Shown here one piece after another: positions 3,841 through 53,540 of a stretch of 64,000 nucleotides of DNA. Positions within the stretch are counted from its first letter, which is position 1, and each line of letters begins with the position of its first letter. The translations under genes were made by a program, and so were the position numbers. The stretch lies in the NCBI RefSeq assembly GCF_003334335.1, contig NZ_QOWQ01000002.1; one strand, given 5' to 3'. Under the pieces are notes generated by a model. It had not been told where the DNA came from. It searched no databases and worked only from the letters and a program-made list of their open reading frames with translations. The DNA comes from Escherichia coli. Its GTDB lineage: Bacteria > Pseudomonadota > Gammaproteobacteria > Enterobacterales > Enterobacteriaceae.

Positions 3841-3923
<83 letters not shown>

Positions 3924-24358: not shown

Positions 24359-27205
24359 TTGAAATACCTTGCTTCTTTTCGTACAACCCTGAAAGCCTCG
24401 CGCTACATGTTCAGAGCATTGGCGTTAGTGCTCTGGCTGTTGATTGCTTTTTCATCCGTTTTTTACATCGTTAATGCGTTACATCAGCGAGAATCGGAAA
24501 TTCGTCAGGAATTTAATCTGAGTTCCGATCAGGCTCAGCGCTTTATTCAACGCACCTCTGATGTGATGAAAGAGCTGAAGTACATCGCCGAAAATCGCTT
24601 ATCGGCAGAAAACGGTGTGCTTTCCCCGCGTGGACGAGAAACGCAGGCGGATGTGCCTGCGTTTGAACCGCTGTTTGCCGACTCCGATTGTTCCGCAATG
24701 AGTAACACCTGGCGAGGTTCTCTGGAGTCATTGGCGTGGTTTATGCGCTACTGGCGCGATAATTTTTCTGCGGCTTACGATCTAAACCGGGTATTTTTAA
24801 TCGGCAGCGATAACCTCTGCATGGCCAATTTCGGTCTGCGTGATATGCCAGTGGAACGCGATACCGCGTTGAAAGCTTTGCATGAACGCATCAATAAATA
24901 TCGAAATGCACCACAAGATGATAGCGGCAGTAACCTCTACTGGATCAGCGAAGGTCCGCGCCCTGGCGTCGGGTATTTTTACGCGTTGACGCCAGTTTAT
25001 CTGGCGAACCGGTTGCAGGCGCTTTTGGGTGTCGAGCAGACCATCCGGATGGAGAACTTTTTCTTACCGGGTACGTTGCCGATGGGGGTTACCATTCTTG
25101 ATGAAAATGGTCATACCCTGATTTCGCTTACCGGACCAGAAAGTAAAATTAAGGGCGATCCTCGCTGGATGCAGGAACGCTCCTGGTTTGGCTATACGGA
25201 AGGGTTCCGGGAGCTGGTGCTGAAGAAAAATCTGCCACCCTCATCGCTAAGCATCGTGTATTCGGTGCCGGTTGATAAGGTGCTGGAACGCATTCGCATG
25301 TTGATCCTTAACGCAATTTTGCTGAATGTGCTTGCCGGAGCTGCATTGTTTACTCTCGCACGGATGTACGAGCGACGTATTTTCATTCCGGCGGAAAGCG
25401 ACGCCCTGCGACTGGAAGAACATGAGCAGTTCAATCGCAAGATTGTCGCCTCCGCGCCAGTGGGTATCTGCATTTTGCGTACCGCTGATGGCGTCAATAT
25501 TTTAAGTAACGAACTGGCGCATACCTATCTCAATATGCTTACGCATGAGGACCGCCAACGACTGACGCAAATTATCTGTGGGCAGCAGGTCAATTTTGTT
25601 GATGTCCTGACCAGCAACAATACCAATCTGCAAATCAGCTTCGTCCATTCGCGCTATCGTAATGAAAACGTGGCCATTTGTGTGCTGGTGGATGTTTCTT
25701 CGCGCGTGAAGATGGAAGAGTCGTTGCAGGAGATGGCACAAGCAGCGGAACAGGCGAGCCAGTCAAAATCGATGTTCCTTGCCACCGTCAGTCATGAGCT
25801 GCGAACGCCGCTGTATGGCATTATCGGTAACCTGGATCTGTTGCAAACCAAAGAGTTACCGAAAGGCGTCGATCGGCTGGTGACGGCAATGAACAACTCT
25901 TCCAGCCTGTTGTTGAAAATTATCAGCGATATTCTCGATTTCTCGAAGATTGAATCGGAACAGTTGAAGATCGAACCGCGTGAGTTTTCACCGCGTGAAG
26001 TGATGAACCACATCACCGCCAACTATTTACCGCTGGTGGTACGCAAGCAGTTAGGCTTGTACTGCTTTATTGAACCGGATGTGCCAGTGGCCTTAAATGG
26101 CGACCCGATGCGTTTACAGCAGGTCATCTCCAACCTGTTGAGTAACGCCATAAAATTCACCGATACCGGCTGTATAGTTTTGCATGTTCGCGCGGATGGC
26201 GATTATCTCTCTATCCGTGTTCGCGATACCGGCGTGGGGATACCGGCGAAAGAAGTGGTGCGCTTGTTTGATCCCTTCTTCCAGGTCGGAACGGGCGTAC
26301 AGCGTAATTTCCAGGGGACCGGTCTGGGTCTGGCGATTTGTGAAAAACTGATCAGCATGATGGACGGCGATATCTCGGTAGATTCAGAACCGGGAATGGG
26401 CAGCCAGTTTACCGTGCGTATTCCGTTGTACGGCGCTCAGTACCCGCAGAAAAAAGGCGTGGAAGGGTTGAGTGGTAAACGCTGCTGGCTGGCGGTCCGC
26501 AATGCGTCGCTCTGTCAGTTCCTGGAAACCAGTTTGCAGCGCAGCGGCATCGTCGTTACAACATACGAAGGGCAGGAACCGACTCCCGAAGATGTGTTGA
26601 TCACTGACGAGGTAGTGAGTAAAAAATGGCAGGGCAGAGCGGTAGTGACCTTCTGTCGTCGCCATATTGGTATTCCGCTGGAGAAAGCGCCAGGGGAGTG
26701 GGTACACAGTGTGGCTGCTCCGCATGAGCTACCGGCATTGTTGGCGCGTATTTATTTGATCGAGATGGAGAGCGACGATCCTGCTAACGCTCTGCCGTCA
26801 ACGGACAAAGCGGTCAGCGATAATGACGATATGATGATTCTGGTCGTGGATGATCATCCGATTAACCGGCGTTTGCTGGCAGATCAGTTGGGATCGTTGG
26901 GCTATCAATGTAGAACCGCGAATGATGGCGTCGATGCGCTTAATGTACTTAGCAAGAATCATATTGATATCGTGCTTAGCGACGTCAACATGCCAAATAT
27001 GGATGGTTACCGCTTGACGCAACGCATTCGTCAGTTGGGACTGACGTTGCCGGTAATCGGAGTAACTGCTAATGCGTTGGCTGAAGAGAAGCAGCGGTGT
27101 CTGGAGTCCGGTATGGACAGCTGCCTGTCGAAGCCGGTAACGCTGGATGTGATAAAACAGACGCTGACGTTATATGCCGAGAGGGTCAGGAAATCGCGGG
27201 ATTCG

Positions 27206-27208
<3 letters not shown>
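24359..27208 (+). CDS. rcsC: Hybrid sensor kinase of the Rcs phosphorelay, 949 aa; TTG start
   Basis: Full ORF MKYLASF...; H-box HELRTPL; C-terminal receiver domain. Confidence 0.93.
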
Positions 27209-27401
<193 letters not shown>

Positions 27402-51726: not shown

Positions 51727-52280
51727 AGCGCAAAGTATTGTTAATTCCGTTGATTATCTTCCTGGCGATTGCCGCGGCGCTGCTGTGGCAGCTGGCGCGT
51801 AATGCCGAAGGGGATGATCCGACCAATCTGGAATCGGCGCTCATTGGCAAGCCTGTGCCGAAGTTTCGTCTCGAATCACTGGACAATCCGGGGCAGTTTT
51901 ATCAGGCGGATGTGCTGGCTCAGGGCAAACCAGTACTGCTTAACGTCTGGGCGACCTGGTGTCCGACCTGCCGTGCGGAACATCAATATCTGAATCAGCT
52001 TTCTGCGCAGGGCATCCGCGTGGTCGGCATGAACTATAAAGACGATCGCCAGAAGGCAATCAGCTGGCTGAAAGAGCTGGGCAATCCTTACGCGCTAAGC
52101 CTGTTTGATGGCGATGGCATGTTAGGGCTGGATCTCGGTGTCTATGGCGCGCCAGAAACGTTTCTTATTGACGGCAACGGCATCATTCGCTATCGCCATG
52201 CGGGCGATCTGAATCCTCGCGTCTGGGAAGAAGAGATCAAGCCGCTGTGGGAGAAATACAGTAAGGAGGCCGCACAATGA
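51723..52280 (+). CDS. ccmG: Thiol:disulfide interchange protein CcmG/DsbE, 185 aa
   Basis: Full ORF; WCPTC motif. Confidence 0.95.
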   Translation: MKRKVLLIPLIIFLAIAAALLWQLARNAEGDDPTNLESALIGKPVPKFRLESLDNPGQFYQADVLAQGKPVLLNVWATWCPTCRAEHQYLNQLSAQGIRVVGMNYKDDRQKAISWLKELGNPYALSLFDGDGMLGLDLGVYGAPETFLIDGNGIIRYRHAGDLNPRVWEEEIKPLWEKYSKEAAQ

Positions 52281-53329
52281 GGTTTTTATTGGGCGTGCTG
52301 ATGCTGATGATCTCCGGCTCAGCGCTGGCGACCATCGATGTGTTGCAGTTTAAAGATGAAGCACAGGAACAACAGTTCCGTCAGCTCACTGAAGAACTGC
52401 GCTGCCCGAAATGCCAGAACAACAGCATTGCCGATTCCAACTCGATGATTGCCACCGACCTGCGTCAGAAAGTGTATGAACTGATGCAGGAAGGTAAAAG
52501 TAAAAAAGAGATTGTCGATTATATGGTGGCGCGTTACGGCAACTTCGTCACTTACGATCCGCCGTTAACGCCGCTGACCGTGCTGCTGTGGGTGCTGCCA
52601 GTAGTGGCTATTGGCATTGGCGGTTGGGTCATATACGCCCGCTCGCGGCGTCGGGTACGCGTGGTGCCGGAAGCGTTTCCTGAACAAAGCGTGCCGGAAG
52701 GTAAGCGTGCCGGATATGTTGTTTATCTGCCGGGTATTGTGGTGGCGTTAATTGTGGCTGGCGTCAGCTACTACCAGACTGGCAATTATCAGCAGGTGAA
52801 AATCTGGCAGCAGGCCACGGCACAGGCTCCGGCGTTGCTGGACAGGGCGCTGGATCCGAAAGCCGATCCGCTCAACGAAGAAGAGATGTCGCGTCTTGCG
52901 CTGGGGATGCGTACTCAACTGCAAAAAAATCCGGGAGATATAGAAGGCTGGATTATGTTGGGCCGCGTTGGCATGGCGCTGGGTAACGCCAGTATCGCCA
53001 CCGATGCATACGCCACTGCGTATCGCCTCGATCCGAAAAACAGTGATGCTGCACTGGGATACGCTGAAGCGTTGACTCGTTCATCTGATCCCAACGACAA
53101 CCGCCTCGGCGGTGAACTGCTACGTCAGCTGGTGAGAACGGACCATAGCAATATCCGTGTGCTAAGCATGTATGCGTTTAATGCCTTTGAGCAGCAGCGA
53201 TTTGGCGAAGCCGTTGCCGCGTGGGAGATGATGTTGAAACTCTTACCTGCCAACGATACTCGCCGTGCGGTGATTGAACGTAGTATCGCGCAGGCGATGC
53301 AACATTTGTCGCCGCAGGAGAGTAAATAA
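52277..53329 (+). CDS. ccmH: Cytochrome c haem lyase subunit CcmH, 350 aa
   Basis: Full ORF; LRCPKC motif and TPR-like C-terminal half. Confidence 0.93.
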   Translation: MRFLLGVLMLMISGSALATIDVLQFKDEAQEQQFRQLTEELRCPKCQNNSIADSNSMIATDLRQKVYELMQEGKSKKEIVDYMVARYGNFVTYDPPLTPLTVLLWVLPVVAIGIGGWVIYARSRRRVRVVPEAFPEQSVPEGKRAGYVVYLPGIVVALIVAGVSYYQTGNYQQVKIWQQATAQAPALLDRALDPKADPLNEEEMSRLALGMRTQLQKNPGDIEGWIMLGRVGMALGNASIATDAYATAYRLDPKNSDAALGYAEALTRSSDPNDNRLGGELLRQLVRTDHSNIRVLSMYAFNAFEQQRFGEAVAAWEMMLKLLPANDTRRAVIERSIAQAMQHLSPQESK

Positions 53330-53388
53330 AAAGAGGCCCGATGGTGATGCCATCGGGCTAGACTGTTGACAAAGTGCGCTTAGTTTAT

Positions 53389-53485
53389 GCCGGATGCGGC
53401 GTGAACGCCTTATCCGGCCTACAAAATTGTGTAAATTCAATAAATTGATCGATCCACGTAGGCCTGATAAGCGTAGCGCATCAGG
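53389..53485. repeat. RIP/BIME-1: two inverted REPs around an AT-rich IHF-like linker
   Basis: gccggatgcggcgtgaacgccttatccggcctac - aaaattgtgtaaattcaataaattgatcgatccac - gtaggcctgataagcgtagcgcatcaggc. Confidence 0.8.
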
Positions 53486-53510
53486 CAGTTTTGCGTTTGT
53501 CATAAATCTC

Positions 53511-53540
53511 AGCCCGATGATAAATCCATCGGGCTATTTT
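53511..53540 (+). terminator. Rho-independent terminator closing the nap-ccm operon
   Basis: agcccgatgataaatccatcgggct followed by atttttatt. Confidence 0.7.

What the first reader, a model, noticed from the sequence alone, without database searches (positions are those of the whole stretch)
53336..53540. Near-identical hairpins flanking the REP-IHF-REP element between ccmH and narP
Two hairpins with the same core, ggcccgatggtgatgccatcgggctag (53335-53361) and agcccgatgataaatccatcgggctat (53510-53536), are 22/27 identical and bracket about 150 bp holding the RIP element. The upstream copy has its A/T-run on the side that would terminate minus-strand (narP) transcripts; the downstream copy has a T-run terminating plus-strand (ccm) transcripts. 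So each terminator sits on the far side of the REP cluster from the gene it would serve. One reading is that an ancestral bidirectional terminator was duplicated when the BIME inserted, which would be a footprint of how REP elements spread.
Basis: inference. Interest (0 to 1): 0.4.

Follow-up and report, generated by a model that had tools for sequence, protein, structure and literature searches.

The report
Duplicated terminator hairpin around a BIME-1
The two look-alike hairpins are two copies of one old transcription terminator that now sit on either side of a known 150-bp repeat element (BIME-1/REP160) between ccmH and narP in E. coli K-12; the same layout recurs at other BIME-1 sites, which hints at how these elements insert, though the parts themselves are already catalogued.

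Summary
Hairpins at 53336-53360 and 53512-53536 share a 9-bp stem and lie 176 nt apart, exactly against the inverted-repeat ends of a BIME-1 (y REP, IHF linker, z1 REP). They are the only pair among 33 strong hairpins in the window with the same arm.

About 72% of 5,426 complete E. coli genomes lack exactly those 176 nt and carry one A-run/hairpin/T-run terminator. That REP-free allele is probably a secondary deletion. The two-hairpin allele is orthologous in E. albertii and two other Escherichia lineages, and it diverges about as much as the flanking genes.

They put ccm-strand ends at hairpin 1 too, not hairpin 2.

Five of 15 other-or-same BIME-1 sites show locus-specific hairpin repeats above every one of 240 mismatched controls. 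All five have BIME-free alleles with one hairpin. This supports duplication at insertion, with a repeat length set by the hairpin (about 18-27 nt).

The element, the terminator and BIME-1 presence/absence polymorphism are known. I could not confirm that the duplication footprint is new.

The parts
52277..53329 (+). ccmH coding sequence (stop TAA 53327-53329)
   Evidence: ORF list; annotated ccmH in matching E. coli records
53327..53335 (-). U-run of the narP-strand terminator (CCTCTTTTTA on the minus strand). The mapped RNA 3' end at 53328 lies inside the ccmH stop codon.
   Evidence: Terminator scan. Term-seq 3' end at MG1655 2291359(+) equals window 53328(-), present in two of the three growth-condition sheets. 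Coordinate mapping.
53336..53360 (.). Hairpin 1 (stem 53336-53344 / 53350-53358, loop TGATG). It is the left copy of the duplicated terminator hairpin and the working bidirectional terminator in K-12.
   Evidence: RNA fold -17.7 kcal/mol on the narP strand. SEnd-seq overlap region 2291323-2291356 equals window 53331-53364.
53360..53387 (+). Left external motif of the BIME-1 (AGACTGTTGACAAAGTGCGCTTAGTTTA). It is an inverted repeat of the right external motif.
   Evidence: Inverted repeat I5. The motif has a median of 12 places per E. coli genome and lies at the left end of all 15 BIME-1 sites examined.
53388..53422 (+). y-type REP/palindromic unit in iREP orientation (ends ...GGCCTAC)
   Evidence: exact match to the pattern, which has five related copies in the window; inverted repeat I2
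53423..53457 (+). L linker of the BIME-1, with an IHF-consensus-like site GATCAATTTATTG at 53438-53450 on the minus strand
   Evidence: Sub-threshold Rfam match ES036/CssrF at 53423-53465. BIME-1 definition from PMC3333891.
53458..53487 (+). z1-type REP/palindromic unit (GTAGGCCTGATAAGCGTAGCGCATCAGGCA)
   Evidence: Sequence; inverted repeats I3 and I7 with the y REP
53488..53510 (+). Right external motif of the BIME-1 (GTTTTGCGTTTGTCATAAATCTC)
   Evidence: (I5)
53511..53536 (.). Hairpin 2 (stem 53511-53519 / 53527-53535, loop ATAAATC). It is the right copy of the duplicated hairpin. narP transcripts read through it.
   Evidence: Fold -15.9 kcal/mol on the plus strand and -16.5 on the minus strand. 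No 3' end is listed here.
53537..53545 (+). T-run after hairpin 2 (TTTTTATTG). It overlaps the narP stop codon (53540-53542) and is the predicted plus-strand terminator tail.
   Evidence: Use as a terminator is not shown.
53540..54187 (-). narP coding sequence (annotated 648 nt)
53361..53536 (.). The 176-nt segment (BIME-1 plus one hairpin copy) that is precisely absent from about 72% of complete E. coli genomes. Its boundaries can slide within the repeat.

Best explanation
A BIME-1 lies between ccmH and narP. It is about 150 bp long: external motif, y REP, IHF linker, z1 REP, external motif, with inverted-repeat ends AGAyTGwTGACAAA...TTTGTCAwCArTCT. It is catalogued in E. coli K-12 as REP160.

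This element went in at the foot of a single A-run/hairpin/T-run bidirectional terminator, and the insertion duplicated the whole hairpin. The result is A-run, hairpin 1, BIME-1, hairpin 2, T-run. This happened before the Escherichia species split. Since then the stems have been kept and the loops have drifted. In the K-12 haplotype the 3' arm of hairpin 1 has become identical to that of hairpin 2 again.

In K-12, hairpin 1 is the working terminator. narP transcripts read through hairpin 2 and the BIME and stop in the U-run beyond hairpin 1. ccm-strand 3' ends also map at hairpin 1. Hairpin 2 has no mapped role.

Because the BIME is bracketed by direct repeats, it can be lost precisely. Most E. 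coli have lost it and so have a single bidirectional terminator again.

Shown: the anatomy, the polymorphism, the orthology across species, the mapped 3' ends, and the recurrence at other loci. Inferred: that insertion itself made the duplication, how it did so (nicks at the two feet of an extruded hairpin, or a template switch across its foot), and the direction of change within E. coli.
For: Anatomy: the repeats abut the inverted-repeat ends of the element.

Not chance.

Population: 1,505 of 5,426 genomes hold the long allele. Most of the rest hold an allele exactly 176 nt shorter with one hairpin, TAAATAAAAAGAGGCCCGATGGTGATGCCATCGGGCTATTTTTATTG.

Age: the long allele occurs in E. albertii and in two further species representatives. 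Intergenic identity to K-12 is 0.88-0.90, against 0.85-0.91 for the ccmH 3' end and 0.91-0.94 for narP. Both hairpins and their distinct loops are present in all of them.

Deletion direction: a second E. coli long haplotype (33E type, about 55 genomes) has a ccmH flank identical (0/230) to the O157 short allele. The K-12-type flank differs from every short allele at 6-9 of 230 positions.

Function: Term-seq 3' end at window 53328(-). SEnd-seq bidirectional terminator entry 181 equals hairpin 1.

Generality: at 5 of 15 distinct BIME-1 sites the left and right flanks align as direct repeats with scores 11-18, against a maximum of 9 in 240 mismatched pairings. The repeats are locus-specific hairpins, with an A-run before the left copy and a T-run after the right copy. 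barA-gudD shows a decayed pair. BIME-free alleles with exactly one hairpin exist at rlmC-artJ, yqjF-yqjG, mscK-rsmS and lpdA-yacH.
Against: No young insertion with two identical copies was found, so duplication at insertion is inferred, not seen.

Loops of the two copies differ at 30-70% of positions while stems are identical. That needs either great age plus constraint on the stems, or a process that never copied the loop.

About half of the BIME-1 sites have a hairpin on one side only, or none.

IS200/IS605-type transposases, the relatives of the REP-associated transposase, make no target duplication (PMC3333891).

The hairpin arms equal those of a z1-like REP that Citrobacter carries in the same spacer, so the hairpin itself may descend from a REP.

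Confidence: 0.6

Rival explanations
1. Recent insertion. The single-hairpin allele is the ancestral empty site, and the BIME-1 inserted (with duplication) within the E. coli lineage leading to K-12.
For: The short allele is the majority allele. It carries the loop of hairpin 1 unchanged. S. enterica subsp. diarizonae has a single similar hairpin, GGCCCGGTGGTGCCAGGCCATCGGGC, in this spacer.
Against: The same element sits at the same position and in the same orientation, with both hairpins, in E. albertii and two other Escherichia lineages. It diverges in step with the flanking genes. Two long haplotypes 4% apart exist inside E. coli, and the short allele nests with one of them. The loops already differ in every lineage.
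Confidence: 0.07
2. The hairpins are decayed REPs. On this reading the region is an old four-unit REP cluster whose outer units shrank into short hairpins, and no target duplication is involved.
For: The arms GGCCCGAT / GCCATCGGGC are identical to those of the z1-like REP GTAGGCCCGATAAGCGTAGCGCCATCGGGCA, which lies next to the narP stop in at least eight Citrobacter loci. They are one compensated base pair away from E. coli z1 arms. In the 33E haplotype the 3' arm of hairpin 1 reads CCATCAGGCC. The REP160 annotation appears to include hairpin 1.
Against: There is no GTAG/CTAC tag. The hairpins are 23-25 nt with a perfect stem, not a 30-40 nt imperfect palindrome. There are no other copies in the window or in 300 kb of related loci. 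At other BIME-1 sites the flanking hairpin pairs have unrelated, locus-specific sequences, which a REP origin cannot explain. A REP origin of the ancestral single hairpin is still compatible with the best explanation.
Confidence: 0.15
3. The duplication came from another process. Examples are a tandem duplication or replication slippage of the terminator before or after the BIME arrived, or gene conversion making two unrelated terminators alike.
For: The K-12 haplotype shows signs of homogenisation: the 3' arm of hairpin 1 plus TA equals that of hairpin 2, unlike other lineages. Loops are dissimilar, as expected if only the stems were copied or converted.
Against: The repeats abut the element ends to within 1-2 nt at several independent loci. 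Unrelated duplications would have to do this each time. No allele with two hairpins and no BIME was found.
Confidence: 0.13
4. Two independent terminators resemble each other by chance or by convergent selection for a stable GC stem.
For: Both are short GC-rich stems of the kind terminators need.
Against: The arms are an identical 8-9 nt sequence, with 0.02 matches expected by chance. They are the only shared arm among 33 hairpins. The shared arm is conserved in five lineages. The pattern is absent elsewhere in 300 kb.
Confidence: 0.02

Closest known systems
BIME-1 / RIP (RIB) elements of E. coli (y REP, L linker with IHF site, z1 REP); this copy is catalogued as REP160
   Same: It has the same units in the same order. 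It is a single copy, extragenic, and lies at the 3' ends of genes. Presence/absence between strains is a known trait of BIME-1 (PMC1187871 citing Bachellier 1997; PMC3333891).
   Different: Nothing about the element itself differs. What the papers I could read do not mention is that the element is bracketed by two copies of a local terminator hairpin, here and at other sites.
Overlapping bidirectional intrinsic terminators between convergent genes (SEnd-seq list of Ju et al. 2019, as re-tabulated in bioRxiv 10.64898/2026.03.23.713779)
   Same: Hairpin 1 is entry 181 of that list, with converging 3' ends 34 nt apart. The short allele has the textbook A-run/hairpin/U-run form.
   Different: In K-12 the hairpin has a U-run on the narP strand only. 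The ccm-strand end lies after UAGACU, so it may come from trimming or polymerase collision rather than classic termination. The second copy, hairpin 2, is not used in the mapped conditions.
Miniature inverted-repeat elements (MITEs) with target-site duplications
   Same: It has terminal inverted repeats, direct repeats of target sequence against both ends, and empty alleles with one repeat copy.
   Different: The repeat is about 18-27 nt and its length follows the local hairpin rather than being fixed. The presumed mobilising enzyme family (REP-associated Y1 transposase) is not known to make duplications.
REP dimers lying inside palindromes in other phyla (Di Nocera et al. 2013, PMC3733652)
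   Same: In both cases REP doublets are associated with flanking palindromic sequence.
   Different: There the doublet splits one conserved family-wide palindrome, one arm on each side. Here each side holds a complete, locus-specific hairpin.
Deletion between short direct repeats that flank a palindrome (replication slippage; own knowledge of the classic E. coli work)
   Same: A 176-nt segment, largely palindromic and bracketed by 25-nt repeats, is lost precisely and leaves one repeat.
   Different: The deletion was not observed happening. It is inferred from haplotypes.

Membership tests
BIME-1 / RIP element | One y-type and one z1-type palindromic unit in inverted orientation (…GGCCTAC / GTAGGCC…) | tested here: met
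   y unit at 53388-53422 and z1 unit at 53458-53487. Definition from PMC3333891. Assignment of the 30-nt unit to z1 rests on my own knowledge of the consensus.
BIME-1 / RIP element | Long (L) linker carrying an IHF site | tested here: met
   The linker is 35 nt. GATCAATTTATTG at 53438-53450(-) fits ATCAANNNNTTR; the first W position is G. IHF binding itself cannot be tested here.
BIME-1 / RIP element | Single copy per locus, extragenic, with conserved external motifs shared by other copies | tested here: met
   It lies between two stop codons. The left external motif has a median of 12 places per genome. The same ends occur at 15 sites.
Intrinsic (Rho-independent) terminator | GC-rich stem-loop followed by a U-run on the transcribed strand | tested here: met
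   Hairpin 1 on the minus strand and hairpin 2 on the plus strand. Fold energies are -17.7 and -15.9 kcal/mol.
Intrinsic (Rho-independent) terminator | RNA 3' ends mapped in the U-run | tested here: met
   For hairpin 1 on the narP strand only: Term-seq 3' end at window 53328 and SEnd-seq entry 181.
Intrinsic (Rho-independent) terminator | Hairpin 2 terminates ccm transcripts | tested here: inconclusive
   No 3' end at hairpin 2 appears in either data set. The ccm-strand end is listed at hairpin 1. The data come from aerobic cultures in which the nap-ccm operon is probably poorly expressed (my own knowledge).
Mobile element with target-site duplication | Direct repeats of target sequence immediately against both ends, locus-specific at different copies | tested here: met
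   Met here and at 4 other sites beyond every control, plus 2 weaker cases.
Mobile element with target-site duplication | Alleles without the element carry exactly one repeat copy | tested here: met
   Five loci. These alleles may, however, be secondary deletions.
Mobile element with target-site duplication | Duplication of fixed length set by the transposase | tested here: not met
   Repeat length follows the hairpin, about 18 nt at rlmC-artJ to about 25-27 nt at ccmH-narP and yqjF-yqjG.
Mobile element with target-site duplication | Observed transposition, or a fresh insertion with identical repeats | not testable with these tools
   All pairs seen have diverged loops. No young copy was found.
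REP / palindromic unit (for the hairpins themselves) | GTAG/CTAC tag, 30-40 nt imperfect palindrome, many copies per genome | tested here: not met
   The flanks are AGAG... and ...CTAT. The hairpins are 23-25 nt with a perfect 9-bp stem. There are two copies in the window, 1-2 places per genome, and occurrences only at this spacer in 300 kb of related loci.

The most novel reading that the evidence does not exclude
BIME-1 elements, the REP doublets of E. coli, insert at the foot of intrinsic-terminator hairpins and duplicate the entire hairpin. The target duplication therefore has a length set by DNA structure (about 18-27 nt) rather than by the enzyme. That would point to insertion into extruded hairpins or cruciforms (nicks at the two feet, or a template switch across the foot). 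It would also explain why BIME-1 sit at gene ends, why they can be lost precisely, and why they leave a spare terminator behind. This would be a previously undescribed footprint of how REP elements spread.
Probability: 0.3. Interest if true: 0.65.

Novelty: already known. Interest (0 to 1): 0.4.

Why it matters
How REP/BIME sequences spread has been open for about forty years, and no insertion has been watched. If hairpin-length duplications are a general footprint, they give a concrete hypothesis to test on DNA substrates: a hairpin or cruciform as the target.

The locus is also a ready natural experiment. About a quarter of E. coli strains give narP a 3' untranslated region of about 210 nt that runs through a hairpin and a BIME. 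The rest give it about 35 nt ending at a classic bidirectional terminator. The two forms can be compared for narP mRNA stability and for interference with ccm.

For annotation, it shows that a catalogued 'REP' can include a working terminator that is not REP sequence.

Tried and rejected
1. I first took the REP-free allele for the ancestral empty site. I dropped this after the outgroup loci and the divergence comparison.

2. I read the E. whittamii single hairpin (loop GGTTAATCC) as proof of an independent deletion with a different crossover. I downgraded this to suggestive. The loop matches hairpin 2 at 7/9 positions and hairpin 1 at 6/9. Also, an O157:H7 strain (TR01) shows a similar loop with no hairpin 2 in its genome.

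3. I suspected the BIME-free allele always keeps the left copy's loop. The lpdA-yacH locus refutes this.

4. I looked for the hairpin 2 loop as a copy of the BIME end, because ATAAATC occurs twice in K-12. The match is specific to E. coli and does not hold at other loci.

5. I tried to read Bachellier et al. 1997 and Gilson et al. 1991 to learn whether flanking repeats of BIME-1 were described and to name the external motifs. Neither paper is held.

6. I looked for narP/ccmH 3' ends in two further papers. No supplementary text is held for them.

7. The Rfam scan gave only sub-threshold REP-derived matches (naRNA4, ES036), so no separate RNA gene is indicated.

8. The RefSeq record of MG1655 lists no repeat feature here.

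Full report
**What is there**

The window matches E. coli K-12 at 100% across this region. It is the reverse complement of MG1655 here: narP is 2290500-2291147(+) and ccmH is 2291358-2292410(-).

ccmH ends at 53329 on the plus strand. narP ends at 53540 on the minus strand.

The 210-nt spacer reads as follows:
- an A-rich run;
- hairpin 1 (53336-53360, stem GCCCGATGG/CCATCGGGC, loop TGATG);
- a 28-nt external motif;
- a y-type REP (53388-53422);
- a 35-nt linker with an IHF-like site;
- a z1-type REP (53458-53487);
- a 23-nt external motif that is an inverted copy of the first;
- hairpin 2 (53511-53536, stem AGCCCGATG/CATCGGGCT, loop ATAAATC);
- a T-run that overlaps the narP stop.

The middle part is a standard BIME-1, also called RIP (definition in PMC3333891).

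**Checking the observation**

Copy 2 starts at 53511, not 53510. The 27-mers match at 21 positions, not 22.

The resemblance is not generic:
- The pattern GCCCGATG-N7-CATCGGGC occurs only at these two places in 64 kb, against 0.02 expected.
- Among 33 perfect 8-bp-stem hairpins in the window, only these two share an arm.
- In about 300 kb of related enterobacterial loci, the GCCCGAT...ATCGGGC palindrome occurs only in the ccmH-narP spacer.

A 411-nt query across the spacer finds the full-length allele in 1,505 of 5,426 complete E. coli genomes. In most of the others it finds an allele exactly 176 nt shorter, and 176 nt is the repeat spacing.

The short allele reads TAAATAAAAAGAGGCCCGATGGTGATGCCATCGGGCTATTTTTATTG. 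That is one hairpin with the loop of copy 1, an A-run before it and a T-run after it, and no REP. A second query puts about 3,940 genomes in this class.

No genome or outgroup had two hairpins without a BIME between them.

**Which state is older**

A scan of one genome per species with CcmH returned the spacer from other Escherichia.

E. albertii and two further species representatives carry the same hairpin 1, BIME-1, hairpin 2 arrangement at the same place. The two representatives are labelled E. coli in their records but are 9-15% divergent from K-12 in ccmH.

Intergenic identity to K-12 is 0.88-0.90. The last 300 nt of ccmH give 0.85-0.91 and the last 300 nt of narP give 0.91-0.94. The element has therefore been inherited with its flanks since before these species split.

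In all of them the two loops already differ: GTGAYG in hairpin 1 and RTAAAT in hairpin 2. E. whittamii has a single hairpin.

Inside E. coli there are two long haplotypes about 4% apart:
- The K-12 type is in about 1,450 genomes. Its ccmH flank differs from every short allele examined at 6-9 of 230 positions.
- The 33E type is in about 55 genomes. Its flank is identical to that of the O157 short allele.

The simplest history is an old insertion followed by a precise deletion on a 33E-like haplotype. The junction lies within CCATC: hairpin 1 ...GATGCCATC|AGGCC and hairpin 2 ...AAATCCATC|GGGCT give the short allele. That deletion then became the common E. coli allele. The direction of change is inferred from haplotypes, not observed.

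The other lineages and the 33E type have an imperfect 3' arm in hairpin 1 (CCATCGGGGCC or CCATCAGGCC). The K-12 type has CCATCGGGCTA, the same as hairpin 2.

**What the hairpins do**

Term-seq of MG1655 (Adams et al. 2021, PMC7815308, supplementary file 1) lists a 3' end at 2291359(+), in two of the three growth-condition sheets. Its context is ...AGCCCGATGGCATCACCATCGGGCCTCTTTTT. That position is window 53328 on the minus strand, the last U of the run after hairpin 1.

narP transcripts therefore read through hairpin 2, which starts four bases after the narP stop codon, and through the BIME.

The list of 306 bidirectional terminators from SEnd-seq is re-tabulated in bioRxiv 10.64898/2026.03.23.713779. 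Its entry 181 is 2291323-2291356, seen in log and stationary phase. This is window 53331-53364, which is hairpin 1. The converging ccm-strand ends therefore also lie at hairpin 1, five or six bases past its stem, where there is no U-run.

Neither data set has an end at hairpin 2. These were aerobic cultures, however, so it is not excluded.

The same table tags the entry as overlapping REP160 by 29 nt. This implies that the catalogued REP160 reaches window 53336, the outer foot of hairpin 1.

At barA-gudD, the intact hairpin copy next to another BIME-1 is likewise the listed bidirectional terminator.

**Is this a one-off?**

The left external motif has a median of 12 detectable places per E. 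coli genome, so it is part of the repeated element.

A pattern scan of metagenome contigs gave 15 distinct BIME-1 sites with both flanks. The element ends are inverted repeats, CAGAyTGwTGACAAAG...CTTTGTCATCAGTCTy.

I aligned 36 nt outside the left end with 36 nt outside the right end. Five sites score 11-18: ccmH-narP, rlmC-artJ, yqjF-yqjG, mscK-rsmS and lpdA-yacH. The 240 mismatched left/right pairings never exceed 9. A sixth site scores 9, and barA-gudD has a decayed pair (17/25 by eye).

In each case the repeat is a different, locus-specific hairpin lying within 1-2 nt of the element ends. An A-run precedes the left copy and a T-run follows the right copy. The other sites have a strong hairpin on one side only, or none.

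All four additional loci are presence/absence polymorphic in E. coli, and the BIME-free allele holds exactly one hairpin:

| Locus | Genomes with the BIME-1 (of 5,426) |
|---|---|
| rlmC-artJ | 3,192 |
| yqjF-yqjG | 78 |
| mscK-rsmS | 3,881 |
| lpdA-yacH | 494 |

At lpdA-yacH, K-12 itself has the BIME-free form.

**How it most likely works**

Direct repeats of local sequence against the ends of an element with terminal inverted repeats are the classic mark of insertion with target duplication. Here the repeat is a whole hairpin, and its length follows that hairpin (about 18-27 nt). This suggests that DNA structure, not a fixed enzyme stagger, sets the cut sites.

Two mechanisms would fit: nicks on opposite strands at the two feet of an extruded hairpin, or a polymerase template switch across the foot. 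This step is inference. I found no fresh insertion with identical copies. The transposase family linked to REPs is described as making no duplications.

The loops of the paired copies differ at 30-70% of positions while the stems match. I cannot explain this beyond great age with constrained stems.

After insertion, one copy keeps working as the terminator and the other is spare. The repeats make the element precisely deletable.

**Rival readings**

- A recent insertion in the K-12 lineage is contradicted by the orthologous alleles in other species.
- Chance resemblance is excluded.
- The hairpins could descend from a REP. Their arms equal those of the z1-like REP that Citrobacter carries next to the narP stop. 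They fail the REP definition, though, and the hairpin pairs at other loci are unrelated to REP sequence. This could explain the origin of the ancestral hairpin but not the pairing.
- Duplication by an unrelated process would have to land against the element ends at several loci.

**Comparison with what is known, and novelty**

Already on record:
- the BIME-1 itself;
- its catalogue entry, REP160;
- the terminator at hairpin 1;
- the fact that BIME-1 copies are present or absent between strains (Bachellier et al. 1997, as cited in PMC1187871).

I found no mention of duplicated flanking terminator hairpins in the papers I could search or read. I could not read the 1997 paper, whose abstract, as I remember it, reports 'excisions of a whole BIME-1'.

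I therefore rate the object as already known. I give 0.3 probability to the reading that the hairpin-length duplication is a real, general and undescribed footprint of BIME-1 insertion.

**Limits**

- The genome collection is RefSeq complete assemblies, not a random sample of E. coli.
- The direction of change within E. coli rests on a handful of sequenced flanks.
- The functional data are from published aerobic cultures.

Noticed in passing
L007 (E. coli O157:H7 strain TR01), equivalent to window 53344-53350: The short allele has loop GGTAAATCC instead of GGTGATGCC. These are three clustered changes that recreate the hairpin-2-type loop in a genome without hairpin 2. The flanks are identical to other O157 strains. 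It is a singleton among 5,426 genomes. It could be a templated mutation, a tiny import or an assembly error.
   Followed up: partly
L008 (E. coli strain 33E) 828 onward, equivalent to window 53541: An IS200C copy is inserted directly after the T-run of hairpin 2 (GGGCTATTTTT|GTGCACAG...), between the terminator and narP. Three related farm isolates share it.
   Followed up: partly
L191 (E. coli strain 1943), rlmC-artJ spacer: A second BIME-1 allele lies at the same site, only 84% identical to the common one. It has the left hairpin only and runs straight into the artJ end. This is either an independent insertion at the same hairpin or an old haplotype that lost the right copy.
   Followed up: no
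window 53503-53509 and 53520-53526: ATAAATC occurs both at the right end of the BIME and in the hairpin 2 loop, 17 nt apart. Other Escherichia have ATCAATC at the BIME end, so the match arose within E. coli.
   Followed up: partly
window 53329-53545 (both strands): The whole spacer is one long imperfect palindrome. The predicted minimum-energy fold of either full 3' UTR pairs hairpin 1 arms with hairpin 2 arms in a single ~200-nt hairpin (-93 and -90 kcal/mol).
   Followed up: no
L018, L023, L025, L026, L031, L033, L035, L046 (Citrobacter spp.), about 70-100 nt after the ccmH stop: The ccmH-narP spacer holds a y-type REP and a z1-like REP, GTAGGCCCGATAAGCGTAGCGCCATCGGGCA. Its arms equal those of the E. 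coli hairpins. S. enterica subsp. diarizonae (L061) has a single hairpin, GGCCCGGTGGTGCCAGGCCATCGGGC.
   Followed up: partly
window 53383-53419 (-) and 53423-53465 (+): There are sub-threshold Rfam matches to naRNA4 (38.3 bits against a gathering score of 59.5) and ES036/CssrF (35.6 against 37.6). Both sit on REP/BIME sequence.
   Followed up: no
window 3841-3922; 27205-27400; 60568-60601: Other REP clusters are present. The first is a y plus long z-type pair. The second is two y/z pairs about 115 nt apart. The third is a lone degenerate y unit, followed 40 nt later by a strong terminator, AAAAAACCCCGCCGGAGCGGGGTTTTTT. None has the BIME-1 linker or external motifs.
   Followed up: no
E. coli strains FDAARGOS_1370 and FDAARGOS_1371, ccmH-narP spacer: These carry a short allele that aligns over 77 nt to a 75-nt query, so it is a 2-nt longer variant of the single hairpin region.
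   Followed up: no
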